Shown: positions 3,711-60,224 of the stretch, piece after piece
How positions within the stretch are numbered: position 1 is the first letter of the stretch
How the letters are laid out: each line of letters opens with the position of its first letter
Assembly (NCBI GenBank): GCA_000165345.1
Contig: CM000434.1
Location: 1,120,001 to 1,184,000 of the forward strand
Direction: 5' to 3'
DNA length: 64,000 nt
Program-made: the position numbers and the translations under genes
The notes under the pieces: model-generated
The model's database searches: none
What the model saw: only the letters and a program-made list of their open reading frames with translations
Told to the model about the DNA's origin: nothing

Positions 3711-4580
3711 CTAAGTATTAGGGGCAAATAGTTCATCAGAATTGTTAAAAATATGTGAGTTTCTTATCTTGATTCTTCTTCGTTTCAGTTCCATGTTGTT
3801 AGAGGATGAAGTTTTGTTTTGACGTCTCTTGGAAGTAGATTCGGAAGAGTTGGAAGTTTTATCAAGACCAAGAAGTTTTCTAACCGCCATTTCACCTTTT
3901 GTAGTACGAATAATATCTTCCAAATTCATTCCTTTTTTGCTTATCAAAGATTTCCACATTTCCTTAATATCATCATCCATCTTAATTTCTTCTATTCCTA
4001 CATTCTCAGTTAAGGGATAAAGAACTACTCCTTTTAAAGAAGAACAAGCTTCACAGGGTCTTTGAGATGATAACGGACAACCAGTTCCTGTTGAAGAACC
4101 TGTACTCGCAAGTCCTCCATTTTTGCATCTTATTCTACCTGCTGTTTGCTGTTGTCTTAGGCACCTAACTGCTTTTTTGCACATCAAGTTCCGAATCCAT
4201 CTCTCCATACTGGAATTTGTCTAGGAATTAAGTTAAGTTCAAACTCGATCAATATTGTTAGTTTTAATATAACTTACCTTCAATAGTTCTTCATCAATTA
4301 AAAGACCATCTTGATGTTGCCTCACGAATGCTAATAGAGAAATCTCACTATTCAGCTTATCATATGGAGATTTATAACTATATTTACCTGTCGCCTGGTC
4401 CAAAAATATTCTGTCATGTAGATGAATTTTTGTCCAAAAATCGCTTTCTAGAGATATTTGTACTCCATCCTTGCAAAGTATGTTGTGAATCTCCTTCCTT
4501 CTTAATGGAACTGTGTTTGACTGCAGAATATTCAGTACCTTATGTATTAAATATGAAAATGGTTTCTCTTCATTTGACAT
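3711..4580 (-). CDS. General transcription factor TFIIE beta subunit-like (winged helix), two exons
   Basis: Exon 1 is 4580..4278 (101 codons) and ends ...DEELLK followed by GTAAGT at 4277..4272. A 57-nt intron follows. The acceptor AG is at 4222..4221, and exon 2 is 4220..3711, in frame: TNSSMERWIRNLMCKK... The winged-helix block IFLDQATGKYSYKSPYDKLNSEISLLAFVRQHQDGLLIDEEL aligns with the TFIIE-beta WH ([42 protein letters not shown]). An E2F-like box at 4641..4650 lies 60 bp upstream. Confidence 0.55.
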
Positions 4581-14598: not shown

Positions 14599-16024
<1,426 letters not shown>

Positions 16025-25518: not shown

Positions 25519-27096
25519 ATGATGAGCAAAAAGGAGTTTGAGCGTTTACAAGCAGTTATTTTAGTATGTTTATTATATTTATGTATCCATGTTGAAGGAA
25601 ATGGCAGAAATGTAACAGGATTTGTACCAGAATTTAGGAATTCAAGAAGAGAGCCAATTCTTACAAGAGCACCTCCGGTTACAATACTTGGAGATCCAAG
25701 CATATCACTAACTATTCCAGCAAGAAAAGTTTGTTATAAGGGCTCATTTGATTCGAAGTATAATTCGTGTACTTATATAGATAAGAATGATGAGGCAGTT
25801 CCAATTTATAAGGTAAGTAATATGAAGGATTTCCAACTAATATAAATTTAATAACAAAATGGAAATTAATATTTCTTTGTAAAGCCTTGTATAGGTAATT
25901 CAACATTGGTAGATGGATATTGCATTGGAACAATGATTTCAGATTACGAAAAGTATTGTCATGGATAGTAAGTGCAATTGAAATGAATTATGAGATTTGG
26001 TTAATTCAGGTAAATTAAAGCTTTAGATTGAATAATGAGGATTTATGCATAAATTACTCAACCTATACTCCGCCTAGAAGGATTTGCCCTGAAGGATTTG
26101 AGTTGAAATCGGTAGGTCAACAACAATTGCAAGTTAAAAGGTGTGTGAGGAAATTGTATTCGAGACCAATAAAAATTCCTGTAACGGATTCTTTGGGAAG
26201 AGAAAAGTATAAAACAGAATGTAGTCACAAAGATAATAAGTATTGCCCAATAGTTAGGGCACCACAACCTGCTAAATATGTAATGCAATGCCCTAAAGGC
26301 GCAAAGTTAGTTAGTTCTTTTGATAACTCAAAAGCAACATGCGAAACCAAAGTAACAGTTGTTCCAGACTTTGATAGAAGATGTGGGGGAGAGCAGTCTG
26401 GGTGGTTTTGGGATGGGGAATTAAATGTATGTTTAAAACTAAGAACACATGAGCCAAAGTTACGCTGCCCACATCCAAGACCAAAATTAGGGATGGAAAT
26501 AGGAAATTGGGATACACCAGAATATGAACCTCATCCAATATATACATGTTTGGCAAATAGAGCTAGAGCAATAGTAAAGGGTAAGTGTGTAAATATATTC
26601 AGTTAATTAATTTATACAAATATTTCAAAAAACAAATTTCAGGTTGCCCACCTGGTTACACGTTAAAAAAAAGAAAGTGTTTCAGACTTATTAGGCTTCC
26701 TTATGAATTGGATTGTGAGCATGCTGAAGGGTAAGTTTTAATTAATATGTTCTTAAACAATAGTTAAAATCACATCAAACTATTTACTCTTCTTATTTCT
26801 TCCCCACTATTTATATTTCTAGGTTCAAGTTTGAATATGACGCCTCTACAAAAAAAGCAGTTTGTAGATTCAAATTTAATCAGCAGGACTACATTGGTCT
26901 TCCAAGTTATCCTTCTTCAAGAGAAGCATTGACTTCCCATAAAATATTTAAGCATGCTAATATTGAGGATATAATTCGGGCATATCAGCAAGGTACTTTA
27001 AATATCAGGACAATAGAGGAGGAACTAGTAAAAGAATACGACCTATTGGCAAAAATGGAACAAGGAAAGGAGCAAGTTGAACGCCCAGAAGAGTAA
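25519..27096 (+). CDS. Secreted cysteine-rich COWP-like protein (oocyst-wall-protein type I CPxG[FY]xL repeats), five exons
   Basis: The exons are 25519..25812, 25885..25967, 26021..26580, 26643..26730 and 26823..27096. All four donors are GTAAGT (25813, 25968, 26581, 26731). The acceptors are AAAG, AAAG, TTTCAG and TTCTAG, and the phases are consistent (0, 2, 1, 2), giving about 432 aa. The signal peptide reads MMSKKEFERLQAVILVCLLYLCIHVEG. Repeats include RICPEGFELKS...C, QCPKGAKLVS...C and GCPPGYTLKKRKC. The track showed only fragments, with TTG called as M at 25504 and 26028. Confidence 0.55.
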
Positions 27097-27257: not shown

Positions 27258-28889
27258 ATGTGGAGTTCTTTAGAGTTAAGTAGGCCTTTATTAAAGGCAT
27301 TAAGCGATTTGAACTTTGTAGAAGCAACGTTAATTCAGAAGGAGGTAATTCCATTGGCATTATCGGGAAGAGATATTATGGCTGAGGCAGAAACAGGAAG
27401 CGGAAAGACAGCAGCATTTTTATTACCTGCATTGGAAAGATTATTGAGGTCACCATATGTTCGAAATTCCAGGGTATCATCATTGGGAAGAGTTGGTGGA
27501 GCAGTTGGTACAAAGGTGTTGGTATTATTGCCAAGTCGTGAACTAGCAATGCAATGCTTTGGAGTATTAGAATCTTTGACAAAATATTGCCCAGTGATAA
27601 CCAGGGCAGTAGTAACAGGTGGGATGAATATTCAACAGCAAGAAAGAATACTTAAATGCCAACCACATATTGTTATAGCAACACCAGGAAGAATTTTGGA
27701 TATGCTATTAAATACATTAAGCATACAGTTAGAATTATTGGAAATAATTATATTGGATGAAGCTGACAGATTATTGGATATGGGGTTTCGTCAAGAATGT
27801 TTGGAAATTCTTAAATATTCATCTAGAACTCGCCAGACAATGTTATTTTCAGCAACATTAAGTAGAAGTGTAACAGATTTAGCTTTATTGGCTCTAAATA
27901 ATCCATGCAAAGTATCTACAGTTGGTCTCAAATCAGGGATCAAATCTGTAGGAAGTTCAGGAGAATCAGAATTATTATCTATTACAGGTTTATCATCAAC
28001 ATTAGAACAAGAATTTCTTGAGATTACTAAAGAAGAAGAAAGAGAAGGCGCTTTGTTTTATATTTTAAATAAGATATTTACAAAAAGGGTTATAGTCTTT
28101 TTCCAAACTAAAAAAGAAGCTCATAGATGTGCAATTTTAGGAAATATTTTTGGATTATCATCAACAGAGTTACATGGATTCTTACCACAAGAAAAACGTT
28201 TAGAAAATTTTTCAAAGTTTAAATCTGGACAAGTTGATATTTTATTTGCTAGCGAACTAGCAGCAAGAGGATTGGATGTACAAGATGTTTCTGCAGTTAT
28301 CAATTTCACTATTCCATTAGAAGCTTCTAGATATATTCATAGAGTTGGAAGAACTGCAAGAATTGGATCTAAAGGCAATTGCATTACAATTTACACTCGA
28401 AGCGAAAGAAGCCAGTTAAAAGCTTTAATGAAACAGGTACTAAGAGCAGGTAATAAGTCTTCTGTTGCAGGAAGAGACACAAAAGAAAATGTATCTTCAA
28501 TTATGAAGAAGAGAACTCTTGCTACTAATAACATTAATCAATGGGTTGAGAAAATATCTAATTCTGAAAAACAAGTCAAAGATGCAATAAAAGCAGATAT
28601 TACAGAAAAAGAACTTAGAATTGCTGAGATGCAAGTAAATAAAGCGCAAAATATTCTTTTACACAAAAAAGATATTGAATCCAGGCCAAGAAAAAAGTGG
28701 ATAAAAAGCAAAAAAGAAAAGGATTTAACTAGAGAATCTGCAAAAAAGGATTTATTAAAATCTTGTTCTTCACTAATTGGCCAACATTCGGCATTTAATC
28801 AAGTTAAGAATACTCTTCAAAATGATTTAAAATCCAGTAACAAAACGGTTACTAATAAAAACAAAAAAAGAAAATTATCACAAAAATGA
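27258..28889 (+). CDS. DEAD-box ATP-dependent RNA helicase (DDX27/Drs1-like) with a basic C-terminal tail
   Basis: 543 aa. The Q-motif region is followed by motif I AETGSGKTAAFLLP, Ia PSRELA, II DEADRLLDMGF, III SAT and VI HRVGRTAR. The C-terminus is K/R-rich. Confidence 0.85.
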   Translation: MWSSLELSRPLLKALSDLNFVEATLIQKEVIPLALSGRDIMAEAETGSGKTAAFLLPALERLLRSPYVRNSRVSSLGRVGGAVGTKVLVLLPSRELAMQCFGVLESLTKYCPVITRAVVTGGMNIQQQERILKCQPHIVIATPGRILDMLLNTLSIQLELLEIIILDEADRLLDMGFRQECLEILKYSSRTRQTMLFSATLSRSVTDLALLALNNPCKVSTVGLKSGIKSVGSSGESELLSITGLSSTLEQEFLEITKEEEREGALFYILNKIFTKRVIVFFQTKKEAHRCAILGNIFGLSSTELHGFLPQEKRLENFSKFKSGQVDILFASELAARGLDVQDVSAVINFTIPLEASRYIHRVGRTARIGSKGNCITIYTRSERSQLKALMKQVLRAGNKSSVAGRDTKENVSSIMKKRTLATNNINQWVEKISNSEKQVKDAIKADITEKELRIAEMQVNKAQNILLHKKDIESRPRKKWIKSKKEKDLTRESAKKDLLKSCSSLIGQHSAFNQVKNTLQNDLKSSNKTVTNKNKKRKLSQK

Positions 28890-29151: not shown

Positions 29152-29876
29152 TTATCCAGATAAAGCGTTATTAATGTTGTTAAACTTAATATGTACTTTT
29201 CCAATAGAAGCATTATATTCAAACCATACAATTAAGAATAGATTTTTAAAGTGCGTGTGACCAATGATAAATTTCCCATTAGAACTTTCTAAATAAAAGT
29301 CTTTAATAGTGTGATTATTAGAATTATATTCGTTAAAAGAGCTAACTAATACTGAAGAAATATGTTTAATTTGTGAATTTGTTTCTGAATTTTCTTTTTT
29401 CATTCCCAAAGAAAAAATACCTCCTTCTTTATTTACTAAGCTAAAGTAAAACAATTTAGTTATTTGCTTGTTTCCTTAAAGAAATATGATTAGCCTCCTT
29501 GAATATATTTTAAATATGTCAAATAATAGTGTTGAAGTCCTGTGAAATATAACTAAAAATAATCCCAAAATTTCATTTGGAATTTTGTTATTTTTAACTG
29601 AAATATATCCCACCCAAAAAAATTATTTATTGTAAGGATAATATTTCCAACACATACACACACAACCTCTCAAAGCTTTTGATTTGTAGGATTCAAAGAA
29701 TTATTGAAATAAATATTTATATTTATTTAATATTTATAAATACTTATACAATATATATTATTCTGTTGATAGAGAAATGGAGACAACCTAGCTCAAACTT
29801 ACATTATTGCTTTTATTTCATCACTTTCACAAATTTCTCGATTTAAAAGTTCATTCAAGTTTTTTGAATTGATCAT
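29152..29876 (-). CDS. Roadblock/LC7 (MglB) family dynein light chain-like protein, two exons; absent from the ORF track as a complete gene
   Basis: Exon 1, 29876..29803, has ATG at 29876 and reads MINSKNLNELLNREICESDEIKAI plus AT. The donor GTAAGT is at 29802..29797 and the intron is 362 nt. The acceptor TTTTACTTTAG has its AG at 29442..29441. Exon 2, 29440..29152, reads (I)LVNKEGGIFSLG...FKNLFLIVWFE... The 120-aa product aligns to roadblock ([35 protein letters not shown]). The track ORF 29152..29454 starts at a TTG. E2F-like boxes lie at 29930..29942 (54 bp upstream) and 30186..30198. Confidence 0.5.
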
Positions 29877-30603: not shown

Positions 30604-33600
30604 TCATGAATCTAACCTACCAAATTCATTTTCTTCAACATCTCTTGCTTCTCTTGAAACCCCAATTTCCTTTTCTTCATCATCATCCTTTTCTTCCTCT
30701 AAATCTTTAGAAGATGATTGAGCCTGGTTTACCTTTTCTTTAATTGCAGTGATAGAAACTGGGATTATTGAGGCTGCTCCATCTGATGAAGATACTTGAA
30801 TCTGGCCTTTGAAGGTTTGATCTTCAAAAGTTGAGGGAATTACAGCTTTCCAACCAACTTTGTAAATCATTTGAGCTCTTTGTAAAGGAGGAACAATTGT
30901 CTCACTAAGTTGAAACCAAGGAACCTTTGGATTCTCTGGATACAATTCTATTGAAAATTCTGATGTAGGAAACTTTTCAGTACATGGTATTCCAACTCCT
31001 AAAGATATTAATATAGAAATTAGTTAGTTAATTCTGTTTCTCTATTATTTAAAAAAAAACTTAATATAACTTACCTCTTATCCCATCAATACTTTCCCAT
31101 CCAAGCATTGTTGAAGATGAAATTCTACTAATTGCCAAACTTCCTTTCTCTGAGGATGAAATTCCTCTAGAATCTTCTAAATCCTCCCAGGGAATACTCA
31201 AATAATTGAATTTCACTGATCCATTACTGTTCAACACACATTGAAATGTTGCTGATTTTGAATTGTATTGTTCAGATTTTAGAAATACATTTCTCCATTC
31301 TATTACAAACTCCCACCTCCTTTTCTTCCCCTCTTCCTTTTCTTCTCCATCATCCTCTTCTTCATACTCTAGTCTTTCCTCTCTTCTATATCTACTACCA
31401 ACTCCACTACCAAATCCTCCTCCAAAATCTTCCTCATCTTCTTCAGTCTTTAAGAATGTCACAATTTTCGTATTCTCTCTTCTTCCTCTTGTTGTGAAAT
31501 CTGTCCATAAAGGGGCTAAAATACCATGAGGAGGAGCATATGAGGGTAATGCTGGTACAAATGCTTCACTATATATTGGACTGAAAGAAATAAATCCATT
31601 TACTGAGACATAAATCTCGTCAATCTTCTCCCCAAGAAAGTACCAACTTCTTGGAAGATTTACTTTTTGCACTCCATCATCTGAGTTAGATAAGTCTGTG
31701 AGAATTGTTTCTTGATTAATTCCAATATTTACCCAATCAAACTTTACATTAGCCTTGGGTAAAATCACATCATCTAAAGATACATATAACTTATTTTTAC
31801 CTTCTTCAGAATCCATTCCTTCTAATCTATGAATAATCCTCTTCTTAGAAGGAAGATTCTCTCCAGAAAGAACCATCTTAAAGTAAGATTTTGATGGAGA
31901 TAGATCTTTAATAGAAGTATTACTTCTTGAATAGTCTTTTCTTTTACTTTCTCTTTCAAATCCTGTTGAACTTGGATCTCTTAAAGACTTAAATCTTAAG
32001 TAAATTCTAGGCTTAAATGAATTCTCTAATCCTTTAAATAATATAAAACCAGAAATTGTTGTTTCTGGAATTCTGATTACTCTATTAATTGAAGGAGGAC
32101 GAATTTCTATTCCATATCCTTTACAATAAAGTTTGATTGCAAGTCTTTCAGTTCCAACTGGGAATGAACTTGATGAAGATGATGACAAGATATAGTTACT
32201 GTTTGGGGATATAATATTATTTGATAGAGTATTTATTATTGATGATGTCTCTGTAAATAAGTTACTTCTTACATATGGTATCTTTGTAGACTTGGCTGAT
32301 ATCTTATTTGATGAAAATGAAGAAGATGAAGATGACATTCCTCCTTTGTTATATCTCAACATTAAATGACCACTTATAAATCCTTCTAAAGAGTGTGGAA
32401 TACAACTCACTTGAAGATCCTTGTTTGTCTGATCCTCACCTACTGTTAAAATGGTACCCAATGGTGGATATACTTTAAACTTTCCTTTTCTTTTAGATCC
32501 TAATTCTCCTTCCATATTGACAAATTCAACCATATATTCTAAGGTACCAATACCTGAATTAGAAATTGGAATCAATGTTTTTGTTCCTTCTAATCCCATA
32601 AAAGATAATCCAAGATTTGTACTATTTCCATTTGGTAAAATCGCTTTTGGTTTTGGAATACTAACAACATTAATTATTGTTTTAAGCCTACCTTGAGCCA
32701 AAGTAACTTCACGATCATTAGAATCCACTAGCTTGACAACCAAAGTGGATGTAAAAGATCCAGGCTTCTCCCCAAAAGCTTTAAGTTTAAGTATTGAACT
32801 TGATTGAGGTCCTATAGTATCAGGAGCTTTAAAAGTGATCCAAGAGGTACCAATTCTAGGAAATTCTTTACCATTTTCTTGGTTATAAGCTTCCTGACTC
32901 ATCATTTGAACAGCTCTATGAATATTTAATGTCCCAGAGGTACGAACAGAATTTCTTAATGTTGTAAGTACTGTTACTGATCTTAATATAAGCGTTTTTG
33001 CTTGATCAAAAGTCATACTTGGATCAAAAGCATATAATAAAGCTGCAGCTCCTGAAACAAATGGACATGCCATAGAAGTCCCTGATAACCTCTTATAACC
33101 TTTATTGGCACTAGTAGATAATATATCTACTCCTGGAGCTGCCATATCTACACTTCTATGACCATAATTTGAAAAGACACCAAGTCTTCCATGTATATCA
33201 ATTGCAGCTACAGATAATACATTTGGAAGCTGGTAAGCTGATGGATAAGTTGGTCTAATATCATTATTATTTCTATCATTACCTGCTGCAACAACAAAGA
33301 GCATGTTCTTATCAATACTCCTCTTAATAGCATCATATGTAGCCTGGGAAAATGATCCTCCTCCCCAACTGTTAGATAAAATATTAGCTCCCATCTTAAT
33401 AGCATAGTTAATAGCTTTAACACTATCACTTAGAAAACCAACTCCATTTCCTCTTAGAAACTTAAGAGCCATAATTTTAACTCCCTTCCAGTTAATCCCA
33501 GAAATACCTTCATGATTATTCCCTTTTGCTGCAATAGTACCTGCACAATGTGTACCATGTCCTTCATCATCAACTGGTGCTCCTCTATTATTTGCAAAAT

Positions 33601-34654
33601 CATAGCCATATATATCATCAACATAACCATTCATATCATCATCAACTCCTGGTCTTCCATATAACTCTTTTTCATTAACCCACATATTCTCAACCAAATC
33701 TGGATGAGTATAATCTACACCAGTATCTATAACAGCAACAATTACTTCCCTTTTTGGATGGTTTTCAGGAGTATAATATACTCCAGATCCTTTAGATACG
33801 GATGTATTAATACCTAAATGTTTCCATGCCATCAAAACTTTTGAGTCAGTGTTTGCAACTCTATTATACATTCCCCATTGTTCAGAGAATTTGGGATCAT
33901 TTGGATATATTGCTCCAGAATCTGAACTAATTCCAAAATCTGCAAGCCTAACTTCCTGATCTGGTTCAACATATTCAACTTCATCACTATGTAAAAAACT
34001 TGCAGAAAGTTTTGAAATATATTCAGATGCTTTAGAATTGTTAAATACTTCAACAATCATCATATCTAATGCTTCGAGAACTGTAGCAGATTTGATTCCA
34101 ACAAGCTCATCAGCAGATTCTGATAAAGCTGAAACAACTCTTGTTAAGAATGCTACACCATCTAATTTAGGATATTGACCATTTTTTGACATAATTCCTG
34201 CAACTTTCAACTCTTTGACAGCTTTACTTAAGACTTTTTCCTTATACTTAATAATAAGCCTTCCTGGAATAACTTTAGATCTCCTTCCTTGACCTCTAGA
34301 GACTTTTTCTGAATTAAATTCTTGATTTGAATCCTTTTCTTGGTAATAATAATCATCTTCATCATCCATATTACCCATTTCTGAGAATTCTCCAAGGATA
34401 TGTTCTTGTTCATAATCTTCTTCTGGAGGTTTTTGTTGTTTCATAATATATGGACTAAATACTTTCTCAACAACTTGTACTTCAGGAGTTGCTGATTGGT
34501 CTGCAGGGTTTTTTATAACTAACTCTAAATCAGAGCTCCGACCTTCAACTACATTAATTGAAATTGAGCTGGTATTGAATATATTACAAATAACCCTTTT
34601 TTGAAAAAATACCAATAAATATGGCAACAACTTGAAAATATTTACCTTTTTCAT
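30604..34654 (-). CDS. SUB1: Subtilisin-like serine protease (SUB1-like subtilase), two exons (34654..31075 and 30998..30604)
   Basis: The catalytic triad motifs are VAVIDTGVDYTHPDL (Asp), HGTHCAGTIAA (His) and GTSMACPFVSGAAALL (Ser), with a signal-anchor-like N-terminus. The track ORF 31061..34654 runs into a GTAAGT donor (31074..31069) after ...SIDGIR, phase 1. A 76-nt intron follows. The acceptor CTTTAG has its AG at 31000..30999. Exon 2 is G-VGIPCTEKFPTSEFSIELYPENPKVPWFQLSETIV... and contains the track ORF 30604..30945, whose M is a TTG. The spliced product is about 1324 aa. Confidence 0.8.
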
Positions 34655-35120: not shown

Positions 35121-35472
35121 TCAAAAATAATATAGAAAAGATTGGAGATCAAAAAGTGGAACAAAAGGAAAATTTTGAAAAAAAACAAAACGTTGAATAG
35201 CAAGTATAAAGATTTGGGAAGGAAAAGAAAGGTTGATTAAAAGGAAAGGGAGAAAAGTTTAGAGAATTTGAGCAGGAGTTTTTTTTGTTGTTATTGGGAA
35301 AACAGTTTGTTTTAGCAGAAGTTAAGATTTTGTTACCATAAAGTACTATTTTAAGGATTTAAGAACTTAACAAATATTGCGTTTATTATTGAAAGCTTGA
35401 AATCTTAGCCAAGCTATACAAAATAAGTTGCTTTTTTTTCTTTTTTTCCAGGTTTCTATAAACTTGATAATT

Positions 35473-37131
35473 ATGTCATTAATTTGCTCAATTTCAGGAA
35501 CTACTCCTGAAGATCCTGTGATCTCAAAGACAGGATATATCTTTGAAAAAAGACTCATAGAGGAGTACATAAGATGCAATAATAGCTGTCCAATCACAAA
35601 GAGTGAGCTTTCTTTGGATGATTTGATTCAAGTTAAGTCCAAAAGTAATTTAAAGCCAAGATTGATTAAAAATACAAGTATTCCAGGTATTCTTGACTCC
35701 CTTAGAACAGAATGGGATGCAATGGCAATGGAGATGTTCCAGCTTAGATCTGAGCTTGAACAGACCAAATCACAACTGACTCATAGTCTTTATCAACATG
35801 ATGCTGCTTGTAGAGTGATTGCCAGAATTACTAGAGAAAAAGACCAAGCCATTAGTAGGTTAGCTGAAATCCAGAATAGTATTCTTGAGAAGGATGAAGA
35901 TAATATTACTAGTCTTCAAAGTGTAGGAGGTAAAAGGATTAGAGCAGAAGATAATTTCGTTAATATCCCAGAAGACGTTATAGACCTTTTTACTGAATAT
36001 TCGGATAAAATGCGACCAATTCGAAAAAAACAGTCATTCCCAGACCTTATACCTGCTGAACAAGTCAAAGAATTTTCATTAAAGAGTGAAATAAAACTCA
36101 AAGAGAACTGTAACATAGAGGTTGGAGTAGCTTTCAATGACGAAATTTACGTCTCTGGAATGGAAAATGGCGAGATTCTTGTATCAAGCATAGAATTTGA
36201 TAGAAATGAGATATCTTCTATCCCTATAAGTTATCCACAAAATTGTGAACAAGCCGTTTCTATTTTCGCCATCGAAAAATATTCAGGAAGTCAATACTCA
36301 TCTAAAAATACTAGCCAGCTCCTCTCCTCCTTAAATGTTCTTGCTTGCTTTCAAAACTCAAATAAGATTCATATATTCTCTAGAAACCAAGAAGATGATG
36401 AATCTTTTAACTTATCGCTCATGGATTTTAACTCTTCTTTTGAATCAAACATCATTATCAACTCACTCGAAAAACACCCTTTAGGAATGCATATAATTGC
36501 AAATTCTTCAAATAAAGGCCTATTTTCCATGTTTGATCTGGAATCCAGAAAACAACTTTTCCTACATCAACTTGAACAAAATAATTCATATTCACAACTC
36601 AAACCACATCCTGATGGCCTTATTCTTGGAGGAATTGTACCCAATGGGAATATTGTTGATATATGGGATATTAGAAATCTAGAGAAAATTTCATCCCTTG
36701 AACACCCCACGAAAAATAATAATATTGACCATAACGACCCAAATATTAGCAGAAACTCCAGCCTTTGCTTCTCAAATAATGGATACTATTTGCTTTCTAC
36801 CTCCCTTGACAATAAAATCCACCTTTGGGATCTTAGAAAATCTGCTATTCTTGATTCTCTTGAACTATCCACACTCCCTAACAATTCTAACCTGATTTTA
36901 CAAATTGATGAAAGTGGAAAATATGCCTCCTGCTTTAGCAAAAACCATTTCTCCATTTTCTCACTCTTCAATAAACACAAACTACAACTTATCTCATCCT
37001 TGTCCAATTTCTCTAATAGAAATAATAATAATAATCTCCCAGACAATATCCACCATATTCACTTCAACCAAAATCTTAATTCATTCTCCTCATTATGCCA
37101 CAGTGGAATTATTCGTATGTGGACAAATTAA
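35473..37131 (+). CDS. PRP19: Pre-mRNA-processing factor 19 (PRP19/PSO4): U-box E3 ligase plus coiled coil plus WD40
   Basis: The track start at 35428 is TTG; the first ATG is at 35473. The N-terminus MSLICSISGTTPEDPVISKTGYIFEKRLIEEYIRCNNSCPITKSELSLDDLIQVK matches the PRP19 U-box ([32 protein letters not shown]...). The C-terminal half has WD-like repeats (IWDIRN, HLWDLRK). Confidence 0.85.
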   Translation: MSLICSISGTTPEDPVISKTGYIFEKRLIEEYIRCNNSCPITKSELSLDDLIQVKSKSNLKPRLIKNTSIPGILDSLRTEWDAMAMEMFQLRSELEQTKSQLTHSLYQHDAACRVIARITREKDQAISRLAEIQNSILEKDEDNITSLQSVGGKRIRAEDNFVNIPEDVIDLFTEYSDKMRPIRKKQSFPDLIPAEQVKEFSLKSEIKLKENCNIEVGVAFNDEIYVSGMENGEILVSSIEFDRNEISSIPISYPQNCEQAVSIFAIEKYSGSQYSSKNTSQLLSSLNVLACFQNSNKIHIFSRNQEDDESFNLSLMDFNSSFESNIIINSLEKHPLGMHIIANSSNKGLFSMFDLESRKQLFLHQLEQNNSYSQLKPHPDGLILGGIVPNGNIVDIWDIRNLEKISSLEHPTKNNNIDHNDPNISRNSSLCFSNNGYYLLSTSLDNKIHLWDLRKSAILDSLELSTLPNNSNLILQIDESGKYASCFSKNHFSIFSLFNKHKLQLISSLSNFSNRNNNNNLPDNIHHIHFNQNLNSFSSLCHSGIIRMWTN

Positions 37132-55289: not shown

Positions 55290-56794
55290 ATGGAAGTTCC
55301 AATATTTTCAGAAACACCTCTTTCAATGCAGAGGAATAGAGAGGCCTTTGTTCAACAGATTAAGAGGTAAGTGTGTGTGGGGGTCTAAAGAGATCAAAAA
55401 GGCTCTGGATAAGGTTTTAACTAAAGTAATAATAAATGAATAGGGATTTAGGGGAATATTTTGCTATAATGGGTATAAAAGATTGCGAGTATTATAGTTT
55501 AGAAGAAGTTTTGGAGAGAGTAAAGACTTCAAATATAAGATTTAATAGAGATGTGATGAGAAACGTATTTTTATCAATAAAGCCAACACATATAGATAAA
55601 TGTAGTGGAAAGCAAATTAAGGATAACTATTTGAAAAGAAGATGGGAACTTCAGACAATGTTAGACACTTGTTTTAGGGAGTTTGAAGCTTTGGAACAAC
55701 TTAGACAGCAAGCTGAGAATAATTTGAGGAGGTATGAGAATGTTGCAAGTAAATACGACCAAGAGGAAAGCAAGTTAATGATTCAAGTGGTCAGTTTAGA
55801 TTTACAAAAAGAGATGAATTTGGAGGTAGGATATAAGGTTCACTTGGAATGTCAGGATCAAGTAATTGAGACTCAATGGAAAAGGTATCAACATGATAAG
55901 AAGTGCGTATTTTGGAATGAGTTGTTCAGTTTTGAGATTGAGAGAAAATTTGCAACTGAGGCAAATATTTTAGATATAATATTATTGGATAGTAGAAGTA
56001 ATTTGCAGCTAGGAGGATGCAATGTAATCTTAGATGAGCTTGCAGACCAAAGAAAACATGAATTGAGAAAGGAGATTTACAGTAATACTGATGAAGTTGT
56101 AATAGGATCTTTATTGATTTCTTGTCAATGGTTATATTCGAGACATATTTTATATAAAAGTTATGTAAGAGAATTTAAGCAAAAAAGAGATCAGAAAATG
56201 GAGGATTTGAATACTTATCAAAATGAACTGGCTTGTTTAGATGAACCTTTCTTACCAAAATCAAACAATCTTTCTTTATATTCTTATTTATCATCAGTTC
56301 CAGATTATTTAGCAAATAAACTGGATAACTCACTAACTCAATTTAAAATAAATGGCCCAGAAGTACTTTACAAATATGTAATCTTTATTTCATTTCTTCT
56401 TCAATGGATTGCTAGTGCTACAAGATCATGCTACTTGGATTCTTTGACAACTTGTTATATATTTTGGTGTAATCTTGGTAATGAGGGATTTGCTTCTTCT
56501 AGATGGACTAATAATGGATTCAAGTTTATCCTTTATTCCATATTTATTTCACTTATTATTGATATATTCTGGATGAACATATTCTTTCCAGCATGGAGTG
56601 TTAGCTCTGAAGAAGGTGACCTTCGCAATTTCTCTAAAGTCTTTACATTCTTTAACTTTGTTTGGAAGATCATACTTTTTTTTATAATCTGGAAATCTAG
56701 AAATGATTTTATTAAATTCCAGCAATACGATGAAGCCCTATTGAGAAAAAACAAACATGGAAATCTAAGTCTACAAAATCATCTCAATTATTAA
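55290..56794 (+). CDS. Hypothetical protein with a C-terminal multi-TM region; candidate upstream mini-exon (55290..55366) spliced to 55444..56794
   Basis: The unspliced ORF 55436..56794 (452 aa) is certain as an ORF. Upstream, ATG 55290 opens MEVPIFSETPLSMQRNREAFVQQIK plus AG, ending at GTAAGT (55367). The acceptor AAATGAATAG has its AG at 55442..55443 and joins in frame (AG+G=R) to DLGEYFAIMGIK..., the same frame as the long ORF. C-terminal hydrophobic helices include VIFISFLLQWIASA and FILYSIFISLIIDIFWMNIFF. Confidence 0.45.
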
Positions 56795-58767: not shown

Positions 58768-60224
58768 ATGATTTTTAAGATTAAAAGTTTATTAAATTTA
58801 GATAGAAATGGTTTTCTTTGGGTATTAGTTAAGACAAATATAGAAAATGACGATTTGAGTGTTAACTACTGCTTAAATAATTATGCCTACAATTCATCAA
58901 AGGAAGGATTCTTAGGTGAAGGTAGTTACTTTAGGGCATATAGGGGTAGGAAACTTTTTTCTTTTAATAAGGATAGTGTTGGAAGTATCTTAACCACACT
59001 TAAAATAGGGTTATTATCATGTCTTAAATCTCATAAAGTTGCTTTGGTTATGGAAAATAACCAAAAGATAATTTTATCTGTGTATGAGAGGGTGATTTTG
59101 GAATATTTAATAATGAGAAAATTGAATCATTCCAGTATACCAAGAGTTCTTGACTTGATTGAGGTACCAGAATCGAATCAAATAGTGCTAGTTCATGAGT
59201 ATCTACCTTTTCAGTTGATGTATTGGAATAGGTATGGTAAATTTTATAGTGTAATTAATAATTCTAGAAGGATTATGGTTTATAGTGAGAAGATTTCAAT
59301 AATAATATTGTACCAATTACTTGTTTGTGTTGATTATTTACATGAACATAGAATTGTACATAGGGATATTAAGCCAGAAAATATCTTTTTAACAGAAAAA
59401 GTTGATGAATCAGATTTGATTTGCACTTTTGAAGATCTGAATAGTTTGGATGAGGATGAGGAAGATGAGGATGAATTGTTTGAGGAAAAGTGTCTTTGGG
59501 AGGATGCTCCCATATTTGAGTCAACTTCAGGAGCAAAAGCTGAACAAATAAGATTATTAAGAGAAAGAGATGTGGAAGAAGAAGAAGAAAAAACGGATTT
59601 CTTGGGGAGGAGCTCCTTAATGCAGTTATTGGTGCTCAAAGAATATATGGAATACTTCAAAAAAGACTTTCCTTCAACAAATAAGGAGTCTGATACCGCA
59701 CTTAAGTTTATTTCCAAGTTCCAAGTAAAACTTTCCGATTTCAACTCATCTATTATAGTTAATGACTCTGGGTTGATATATGATTCTGGTAAGTTTAATT
59801 ATATTTTAAGGTGATTTATAGGAGGGAGAGGGAGTAAACTTCTAGGAAATATCATCATCATCATAATTACCATTAATTAATTAACTCTTGATTACCATTT
59901 ATAATAGAAGGATCTATGTTATTTACTCCTCCAGAGTGTTTTAAGTTGGAATGTACCAAAGATGGAATAGATGGATTTAAAAGAGATATTTGGTCAATAG
60001 GATGCGTTATGTATTGTATCTTGAATGGAAGCCCTCCATTTTTTGGACAAGATACAAGAGAACTTTTAAGATCCATAAAAGAGAACTCTGAAAACTTAGT
60101 TTTCAACCGAGAAGGAATATCATTGGAAACAAGAATGCTGATTCAAGATATGTTGTGTATAGATCCAATTAATAGAATTTCTGTCAAGAATGCGATTGAA
60201 AGAGTAAGAAAAATGTTGAATTAA
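58768..60224 (+). CDS. Serine/threonine protein kinase with a DFN variant of DFG and a long acidic insert, two exons (58768..59788, 59908..60224)
   Basis: The track start at 58756 is GTG; the first ATG is at 58768. The kinase motifs are LGEGSYFRAY (G-loop-like), HRDIKPENIFL (VIb) and SDFNSS (VII). The donor GTAAGT is at 59789, phase 1. The acceptor ATAATAG has its AG at 59906..59907. Exon 2 opens with subdomain VIII GSMLFTPPE, then DIWSIGCVMYCILNGSPPFFG. A D/E-rich insert (DEDEEDEDELFEE...EEEEEK) lies between VIb and VII. Confidence 0.7.

What the first reader, a model, noticed from the sequence alone, without database searches (positions are those of the whole stretch)
30604..31075. Subtilase (SUB1-like) gene has a missed 3' exon: the long ORF runs into a GTAAGT donor three codons before its apparent stop
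The 1197-aa ORF ends ...DGIR-GKLY-stop, but GKLY-stop is actually the GTAAGT donor read through. Splicing from 31075 to 30998 over a 76-nt intron with a CTTTAG acceptor continues in frame into the track ORF 30604..30945, whose M is a TTG. This adds 131 residues with an acidic, Ser-rich tail, for about 1324 aa in total. The C-terminal extension would be absent from any model built on the unspliced ORF.
Basis: seen in the sequence. Interest (0 to 1): 0.5.

Follow-up and report, generated by a model that had tools for sequence, protein, structure and literature searches.

The report
Known intron in Cryptosporidium subtilase gene

Summary
The window is Cryptosporidium parvum chromosome 6, and the gene is cgd6_4840 (CpSUB1) on the minus strand. 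The 1197-aa ORF (34654..31061) runs into a GTAAGT donor at 31074. A 76-nt intron (31074..30999; 16% GC; stops in all frames; CTAAC 25 nt upstream of a CTTTAG acceptor) joins it in frame to 30998..30604, giving a 3975-nt CDS of 1324 aa.

- Ten Cryptosporidium species carry a phase-1 GTAAGT...AG intron at the same codon. Its length is 62-149 nt, in all three classes modulo 3.
- Read-through hits a stop within 4-21 codons in the nine species tested.
- Exon 2 stays open in the spliced frame, and its substitutions are biased to third codon positions.
- Intronless bacterial S8+NIDO proteins align without a break across the junction, so the NIDO-like domain finishes in exon 2.

It is not new. The exact 1324-aa protein is already deposited (CAD98301.1, QOY41372.1, WRK33092.1), and a 2022 paper lists cgd6_4840 as 4051 nt, which equals exon 1 + intron + exon 2. 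The truncated model persists in RefSeq XP_627811.1 and in several sister-species annotations.

One point remains open. The acceptor is a TAG|GAG tandem, and three deposits use the distal AG, which drops Gly1194. No transcript data could be examined here.

The parts
31075..34654 (-). Exon 1 of cgd6_4840/CpSUB1: start ATG at 34654..34652, residues 1-1193, plus the first base of the Gly1194 codon.
   Evidence: ORF list and translation. Exact identity with the deposited proteins.
32972..33751 (-). Peptidase_S8 catalytic domain (residues 302-561).
   Evidence: Pfam PF00082, E 2.6e-57, 194.8 bits. Best solved-structure matches are deseasin MCP-01 (E 1.1e-72) and P. falciparum SUB1 4lvn (E 2.9e-52).
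31069..31074 (-). 5' splice donor GTAAGT. Read through, it gives the spurious codons G-K-L-Y-stop.
   Evidence: Sequence. GTAAGT is present at the same codon in all 10 Cryptosporidium species examined.
30999..31074 (-). Phase-1 spliceosomal intron: 76 nt, 15.8% GC, stops in all three frames.
   Evidence: The orthologous introns are 62-149 nt, with lengths falling in all three classes modulo 3. They are only 46-67% identical to C. parvum, with gaps, whereas the flanking exons align without gaps.
31019..31031 (-). Branch-point-like TTAACTAACTAAT. The CTAAC branch A lies 25 nt upstream of the acceptor.
   Evidence: Pattern scan. A YTRAY motif lies 21-29 nt from the acceptor in six of the nine loci scanned. 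No biochemical evidence.
30999..31004 (-). 3' splice acceptor CTTTAG (proximal AG). The next three exon bases are GAG, so the site forms a TAG|GAG tandem acceptor (distal AG at 30997..30996).
   Evidence: Eleven deposited proteins keep Gly1194 (proximal AG) and three lack it (distal AG).
30604..30998 (-). Exon 2: the last two bases of the Gly1194 codon, residues 1195-1324, and the TGA stop at 30606..30604.
   Evidence: Exon 2 is open for 120-140 codons in the spliced frame in the nine loci analysed in full, with third-position-biased substitutions, for example 27/17/68 against C. canis.
30937..31708 (-). NIDO-like domain (residues about 983-1214). It is interrupted by the intron, and its last ~20 residues (VGIPCTEKFPTSEFSIELYP) are encoded in exon 2.
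   Evidence: Pfam NIDO PF06119, E 1.2e-09, covers residues 1012-1156 and only profile positions 1-122 of 186. BLASTP to the intronless bacterial protein P0047 runs across the junction. hhalign against bacterial NIDO-like segments gives probability 99.1%, E 1.6e-18, extending to residue 1214.
30742..30936 (-). Conserved strand-rich module (residues about 1215-1279, ENPKVPWF...DGAASIIPVSITAI). Family unknown; possibly Ig-like.
   Evidence: Many invariant columns across six species. No Pfam hit. The AlphaFold model predicts strands here but at low confidence.
30607..30741 (-). Poorly conserved acidic tail (residues 1280-1324, 38% D/E).
   Evidence: Composition. The alignment shows indels and little conservation apart from a terminal GRLDS in the C. 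parvum clade and C. ubiquitum.

Best explanation
This is the two-exon subtilase gene cgd6_4840 (CpSUB1) of Cryptosporidium parvum. A conventional 76-nt GT-AG intron (31074..30999, minus strand) is removed from the pre-mRNA. Splicing joins base 31075 to base 30998 and yields a 1324-aa secreted S8 protease.

Shown here:
- The splice signals, and an open reading frame that splicing restores.
- Conservation of the intron position across the genus.
- Coding-type evolution of exon 2.
- Continuity of a protein domain across the junction.
- Identity of the predicted product with deposited proteins.

Inferred, not shown here:
- That the spliced mRNA is the main transcript.
- That the proximal AG of the TAG|GAG acceptor is the one used.

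The 1197-aa 'ORF' comes from reading through the donor. It would cut off the last ~20 residues of the NIDO-like domain, a conserved ~65-residue strand-rich module and an acidic tail.
For: - Signals and frame.
- The exact 1324-aa product is deposited as CAD98301.1, QOY41372.1 (CPATCC_003069) and WRK33092.1. Orthologues of 1291-1437 aa in C. tyzzeri, C. hominis, C. meleagridis, C. ubiquitum, C. canis and C. ryanae, and of 1228 aa in C. muris, carry the same extension.
- All 10 species have a phase-1 GTAAGT...AG intron at the same codon. Lengths are 62, 63, 65, 68, 76, 76, 77, 80, 82 and 149 nt. Read-through stops after 4-21 codons in the nine species tested.
- Substitutions in exon 2 at codon positions 1/2/3 are 20/10/45 against C. 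ubiquitum and 27/17/68 against C. canis.
- Flanking exons align without gaps at 70-92% identity in six of the seven non-identical comparisons (50-60% against C. muris). The intron aligns at 46-67% with 4-14 gap columns.
- Intronless bacterial homologues align across the junction (hhalign probability 99.1%).
- PMC9436107 lists cgd6_4840 as 4051 nt, which equals 34654-30604+1.
- PMC8744675 states that the introns of the C. parvum IOWA-ATCC annotation, the source of QOY41372.1, are 100% supported by RNA-seq.
- Intron size and GC content are typical for this genome, where the means are 84-99 nt and 22% GC (PMC4637869).
Against: - No transcript or peptide evidence for this particular junction could be examined with these tools. 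The RNA-seq support is a blanket statement in a paper, not a locus-level check.
- Several public annotations still use the unspliced model: XP_627811.1, CUV06911.1, and the chipmunk genotype I and C. xiaoi models.
- Three deposits place the acceptor 3 nt downstream.
- Partial intron retention cannot be excluded.
Confidence: 0.93

Rival explanations
1. The same intron is spliced at the distal AG of the tandem TAG|GAG acceptor (exon 2 starting at 30995). The main product would then be a 1323-aa protein lacking Gly1194 (...DGIR-VGIPCT...).
For: The GAG immediately after the acceptor gives a second in-frame AG, leaving 130 codons open. Three deposited models use it: KAL3127839.1 (C. hominis), KAL5368365.1 (C. 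parvum) and WKS78601.1.
Against: - Eleven other deposited models keep the Gly.
- C. muris (TTTTAG|GTG) and C. felis (TATAG|GAA) have no second AG, yet they encode R-G-[VI]-G-I-P. The Gly is therefore ancestral and the proximal AG is the one used there.
- From general knowledge of NAGNAG acceptors (recalled, not tested here), GAG is the least-used acceptor, and the first AG after the branch point is normally chosen.
Confidence: 0.05
2. The intron is not removed, or is mostly retained. The real product would be the 1197-aa protein ending in GKLY, and the downstream 113-aa ORF would be untranslated or a separate gene.
For: This is the RefSeq/Iowa II model XP_627811.1 and the C. hominis UdeA01 model CUV06911.1. 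Most C. parvum genes lack introns: about 89% in PMC4637869.
Against: - A downstream ORF in a frame that only splicing connects is conserved in all nine fully analysed loci, although intron length varies modulo 3. C. felis also carries the intron, and its deposited model splices it to an exon-2 ORF.
- Exon 2 shows coding-type substitution.
- It has no conserved ATG of its own; the mechanical ORF starts at a TTG.
- The NIDO-like domain would be truncated compared with bacterial homologues.
Confidence: 0.02

Closest known systems
cgd6_4840 / CpSUB1 two-exon gene model (GenBank CAD98301.1, QOY41372.1 = CPATCC_003069, WRK33092.1)
   Same: The gene length of 4051 nt quoted in PMC9436107 equals exon 1 + intron + exon 2.
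   Different: Nothing; this is the same object.
Single-exon model XP_627811.1 / EAK90066.1 (C. parvum Iowa II), with the same error in C. hominis CUV06911.1, the chipmunk genotype I model (P0017) and the C. xiaoi model (P0021)
   Same: Identical through residue 1194.
   Different: These models read through the donor and end in GKLY, GKLH... or GKF.... They lack the 130 residues after Gly1194.
Plasmodium SUB1 (PDB 4lvn, 8pol, 4tr2)
   Same: Subtilisin-type S8 catalytic domain, E 2.9e-52 to 2.5e-47 over residues ~299-586. The literature assigns both a role in egress or protein processing.
   Different: The full-length SUB1 chains in the PDB are 663-688 residues, about half the length of this protein. 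From memory, SUB1 has no NIDO-like domain, but its domain content was not scanned here. Orthology was not tested by phylogeny. The best solved match is in fact a bacterial enzyme, deseasin MCP-01 (E 1.1e-72).
Bacterial multidomain S8 peptidases with NIDO and Ig-like domains (for example P0047, P0045, P0050, P0024)
   Same: An S8 catalytic domain (42-49% identity) followed downstream by a NIDO-like domain that aligns across the Cryptosporidium splice junction.
   Different: The bacterial proteins have no intron and lack the acidic insertion inside the NIDO-like domain. They carry other accessory domains (SdrD_B, RTX, PKD, HYDIN-like). The module in residues 1215-1279 has no clear counterpart.

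Membership tests
Spliceosomal GT-AG (U2-type) intron | GT at the 5' end, ideally the GTAAGT consensus | tested here: met
   GTAAGT at 31074..31069. It is conserved in 10 of 10 species.
Spliceosomal GT-AG (U2-type) intron | AG at the 3' end, preceded by a pyrimidine-rich stretch and a branch-point motif | tested here: met
   CTTTAG acceptor, with CTAAC 25 nt upstream. This is a pattern match only; branch-point use was not shown.
Spliceosomal GT-AG (U2-type) intron | Removal restores a long open reading frame, while read-through does not | tested here: met
   131 codons open after splicing, against a stop after 4 codons unspliced. The same holds in all nine loci analysed in full.
Spliceosomal GT-AG (U2-type) intron | Position and phase conserved in orthologues while the intron sequence and length drift | tested here: met
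   Phase 1 at the same Gly codon in 10 species. Lengths are 62-149 nt, and intron identity is 46-67% with gaps.
Spliceosomal GT-AG (U2-type) intron | The spliced junction is observed in RNA | not testable with these tools
   The only evidence is indirect. PMC8744675 says all introns of the IOWA-ATCC annotation are supported by RNA-seq. A 32-mer spanning the junction was absent from JGI metagenome contigs, which says nothing either way.
Subtilase family S8 (Pfam PF00082) | Profile match above the curated cut-off | tested here: met
   194.8 bits against a cut-off of 21.8, residues 302-561.
Subtilase family S8 (Pfam PF00082) | Asp-His-Ser catalytic triad motifs | tested here: met
   VAVIDTGVD, HGTHCAG and GTSMACP are visible in the translation. 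These were read directly from the sequence; activity was not tested.
Apicomplexan SUB1 | Catalytic domain more similar to SUB1 than to generic subtilisins | tested here: met
   PfSUB1 and PvSUB1 score 164-180 bits. The next non-SUB1 entries score 125 bits or less, but bacterial deseasin MCP-01 scores higher at 248 bits.
Apicomplexan SUB1 | Orthology by phylogeny and a shared domain architecture | not tested
   No tree was built. Full-length Plasmodium SUB1 chains in the PDB are 663-688 residues, against 1324 aa here. Their domain content was not scanned. The name CpSUB1 comes from the literature.
NIDO domain (Pfam PF06119) | Profile match above the curated cut-off | tested here: met
   38.9 bits against a cut-off of 25, residues 1012-1156, profile positions 1-122 of 186. 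hhalign against bacterial NIDO-like segments extends the domain to residue 1214, across the junction.

The most novel reading that the evidence does not exclude
The intron could be a regulated switch. Stage-specific retention would give a 1197-aa protease with a truncated NIDO-like domain and no C-terminal module. Alternatively, use of both AGs of the TAG|GAG acceptor would give isoforms with and without Gly1194. Either could change how CpSUB1 is trafficked or processed. The evidence here neither shows nor excludes this.
Probability: 0.06. Interest if true: 0.3.

Novelty: already known. Interest (0 to 1): 0.1.

Why it matters
The value is practical. CpSUB1 is studied as a processing and egress protease and as a possible drug target. 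Anyone who designs constructs, tags, antibodies or knock-downs from RefSeq XP_627811.1 or a sister-species single-exon model would lose the true C-terminus: the end of the NIDO-like domain, a conserved ~65-residue module and the acidic tail. The finding also shows that the donor read-through signature (GTAAGT a few codons before a stop) is a reliable way to flag outdated models in this compact, intron-poor genome. It adds no new biology.

Tried and rejected
- A homologue search with the 350-aa spliced C-terminus returned nothing. A second search with a 176-aa junction-spanning query returned only a C. felis fragment. Near-identical proteins demonstrably exist, so I attribute this to the word index and not to real absence. 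I had hoped to find RNA-derived Logan contigs spanning the junction, and none surfaced.
- An exact 32-mer of the spliced junction was absent from JGI metagenome contigs. This is uninformative.
- AlphaFold on the C-terminal 350 aa with a 6-sequence alignment gave a mean pLDDT of 42.9. That is too poor to use, so no fold search was run.
- Pfam found nothing in exon 2 on its own.
- A profile of exon 2 searched against 1.84 billion representatives found Cryptosporidium fragments and then bacterial Rib-repeat surface proteins. Those E-values come from summing up to 22 weak repeat matches to a short 'DG..S..V.V.V' hairpin motif, so I do not accept them as homology.
- The primary CpSUB1 papers (Wanyiri 2009, PMC2669210; Nava 2019, PMC6479043) and the chromosome 6 sequencing paper are not held. 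I recall, but could not verify, that CAD98301.1 dates from 2003 and that the CpSUB1 paper describes a 1324-aa protein.
- Upstream non-consensus GT donors (31197, 31140, 31128, 31092) also keep the frame. I rejected them because they would delete residues that are conserved across the genus and that align with bacterial NIDO domains.

Full report
**What is in the sequence.**
The window has 31.6% G+C. The region holds a 1197-aa minus-strand ORF (34654..31061) and, just downstream, a 113-aa ORF with a TTG start (30604..30945). On the minus strand the long ORF ends ...GAT GGG ATA AGA G|GTAAGTTATATTAA. Its last codons, G-K-L-Y-stop, are therefore a consensus GTAAGT donor read as protein.

- The intron from 31074 to 30999 is 76 nt and 15.8% G+C. 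It has stops in all three frames and ends in CTTTAG.
- Joining 31075 to 30998 completes a Gly codon (G|GA). The frame continues VGIPCTEKFPTSEFSIELYPENPK... to a TGA at 30606..30604.
- The spliced CDS is 3975 nt, or 1324 aa.
- The tail is acidic: 17 D/E in the last 45 residues. It is only mildly Ser-rich, with 5 Ser.

**Is it more than chance?**
GTAAGT occurs 18 times on both strands of the window, against about 44 expected from base composition. Several of these sites sit at obvious ORF junctions. With about 7.7% stop codons expected per codon at this composition, 131 open codons behind a random acceptor has probability about 3e-5. I enumerated all 197 GT..AG pairs around the stop. GTAAGT at 31074 is the only consensus donor that opens the long frame. 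The few non-consensus alternatives would delete conserved residues.

**Identity of the gene, and whether this is known.**
An exact-sequence look-up found both versions in public databases.

- The spliced 1324-aa protein is CAD98301.1, QOY41372.1 (CPATCC_003069) and WRK33092.1, all from Cryptosporidium parvum.
- The unspliced 1197-aa protein is EAK90066.1/XP_627811.1, the C. parvum Iowa II model.

The gene is therefore cgd6_4840, which the literature calls CpSUB1. CpSUB1 is implicated in cleaving GP60 (gp40/15) and in egress. A 2022 paper tabulates cgd6_4840 as 4051 nt, which is exactly 34654-30604+1, or exon 1 + intron + exon 2. The paper behind the IOWA-ATCC annotation, the source of QOY41372.1, states that its introns are 100% supported by RNA-seq. 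That statement is general; I could not check it for this locus. The intron's size and G+C are typical for the genome, where the means are 84-99 nt and 22%.

**Comparative evidence.**
I fetched the orthologous loci of C. muris, C. ryanae, C. ubiquitum, C. canis, chipmunk genotype I, C. xiaoi, C. tyzzeri, an unnamed Cryptosporidium from a Logan assembly, and C. felis.

- In all ten genomes, counting the window, a phase-1 intron interrupts the same Gly codon after WESIDG[IV]R (GPVDAR in C. muris). It begins with GTAAGT and ends in AG.
- Intron lengths are 62, 63, 65, 68, 76, 76, 77, 80, 82 and 149 nt, covering all three classes modulo 3.
- Read-through hits a stop after 4-21 codons in each of the nine loci tested.
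- The spliced frame stays open for 120-140 codons in those nine loci.
- Because intron length varies modulo 3, only splicing keeps exon 2 in frame everywhere.
- Against C. parvum, substitutions in exon 2 fall mainly on third codon positions: 20/10/45 for C. ubiquitum, 27/17/68 for C. canis and 23/18/66 for the Logan species.
- The 60 nt of exon on each side align without gaps at 70-92% identity, except against C. muris (50-60%) and the identical C. tyzzeri. The introns align at only 46-67% identity and need 4-14 gap columns.
- A YTRAY branch-like motif lies 21-29 nt upstream of the acceptor in six of the nine loci. In C. parvum it is CTAAC, 25 nt upstream.

**What the extra exon encodes.**
Pfam finds Peptidase_S8 (residues 302-561) and a NIDO domain (residues 1012-1156). 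The NIDO match covers only profile positions 1-122 of 186, so the domain should run on.

A cyanobacterial, and therefore intronless, S8+NIDO protein (P0047) aligns by BLASTP straight through the junction. MLGWESIDGIRG|VGIPCTEKFPTSEFSIELYP aligns with TIGLENANGLDGVQVAYNQNYASNGLAVRFAP. A profile-profile comparison of the Cryptosporidium C-termini with 20 bacterial NIDO-like segments gives probability 99.1% and E 1.6e-18. It extends to residue 1214, which is 20 residues into exon 2. The unspliced model therefore truncates a folded domain.

Two further regions follow:
- Residues ~1215-1279 are strongly conserved across the genus, with invariant P-W-F, P-P-L-Q and S-D-G-A..S.I-P.
- The acidic tail that follows is poorly conserved.

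I could not assign a family to residues 1215-1279:
- Pfam found nothing.
- The structure model was too poor to use, with pLDDT 42.9.
- The library-wide profile search produced only repeat-inflated matches to Rib domains, which I do not accept as homology.

**Remaining ambiguity.**
The acceptor is a tandem TAG|GAG. Using the distal AG (exon 2 starting at 30995) also keeps the frame and removes only Gly1194. Three deposits do this: KAL3127839.1, KAL5368365.1 and WKS78601.1. Eleven others keep the Gly. C. muris (TAG|GTG) and C. felis (TAG|GAA) have no second AG and still encode the Gly. The proximal AG is therefore ancestral, and I judge it the main site in C. parvum as well. From general knowledge of NAGNAG acceptors (recalled, not tested here), GAG is rarely used. 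Only junction reads or the peptides GVGIPCTEK and VGIPCTEK can settle this.

**Comparison with known families.**
The catalytic domain is an S8 subtilase with visible Asp/His/Ser motifs. Among solved structures, its best match is bacterial deseasin MCP-01 (E 1.1e-72), followed by Plasmodium SUB1 (E 2.9e-52 to 2.5e-47), well ahead of the classical subtilisins. 'SUB1-like' is thus reasonable for the catalytic domain.

Orthology was not tested. At 1324 aa the protein is about twice the length of the full-length SUB1 chains in the PDB (663-688 residues). Its S8 + NIDO-like + C-terminal module layout resembles bacterial multidomain S8 peptidases. I did not scan Plasmodium SUB1 for NIDO.

**Verdict.**
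However, the two-exon model is already public, so the finding is an annotation-quality point and not a discovery. The truncated model persists in RefSeq and in several sister-species annotations. In C. felis the gene is split into two models.

Noticed in passing
window 30995..31004 (minus strand): The acceptor is a tandem TAG|GAG (NAGNAG). Three deposited proteins (KAL3127839.1, KAL5368365.1, WKS78601.1) use the distal AG and lack Gly1194, while eleven keep it. C. muris and C. felis have no second AG.
   Followed up: partly
window 59789..59907 (+): A second GTAAGT read-through case: a 119-nt intron in a Ser/Thr kinase gene (ORF starting near 58768). The spliced 445-aa product is already deposited (EAZ51549.1, QOY41385.1). 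The C. hominis TU502 model XP_667724.1 (350 aa) and prokaryote-style Logan calls appear to stop at the donor.
   Followed up: yes
window +14701..14785, +55367..55451, -4277..4221, and +25813..26822 (several): Further GTAAGT sites sit between open frames and look like introns: 85 nt with 412 codons downstream, 85 nt with 447 codons downstream, and 57 nt. There is also a probable multi-exon Cys-rich secreted-protein gene at about 25.5-27 kb.
   Followed up: no
whole window: GTAAGT is depleted: 18 occurrences on both strands against about 44 expected from base composition. A large share of them lie at ORF junctions, so the hexamer is a useful intron flag in this genome.
   Followed up: partly
L009:1803..5725 (C. 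felis): The C. felis annotation splits the orthologue into two genes. One is an 828-aa model whose C-terminal part looks frameshifted. The other is a 191-aa model that does contain the conserved intron, which here is 149 nt (L009:5035..5183) and, unusually, G+C-rich.
   Followed up: partly
window 31075..34654 (protein level): The closest relatives outside Cryptosporidium in the large protein search are bacterial multidomain S8 peptidases, several with NIDO and HYDIN-like Ig domains. Some dinoflagellate-associated proteins also appear, but no Plasmodium or Toxoplasma SUB1 is in the top 120. The best solved structure is bacterial deseasin MCP-01. The S8+NIDO layout may be ancestral or acquired; no phylogeny was made.
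   Followed up: partly
window 31230..31440 (residues ~1072-1140): A ~60-residue acidic, Gly-rich insertion interrupts the NIDO-like domain. Bacterial homologues lack it, and its length varies widely among Cryptosporidium species: much longer in C. ryanae and C. xiaoi, nearly absent in C. muris.
   Followed up: no
window 29152..29802 (minus strand): There is a small downstream gene with a GTAAGT at 29802. In the sister species its product is 119-126 aa and has no Pfam hit. The order PRP19 (35428..37131 +), subtilase, small gene, DEAD-box helicase (27258..28889 +) is conserved across the genus.
   Followed up: no
method note: The word-indexed protein search failed to return near-identical Cryptosporidium proteins for C-terminal fragment queries, although the full-length query found them. 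Empty results from fragment queries with acidic low-complexity stretches should not be read as absence.
   Followed up: no
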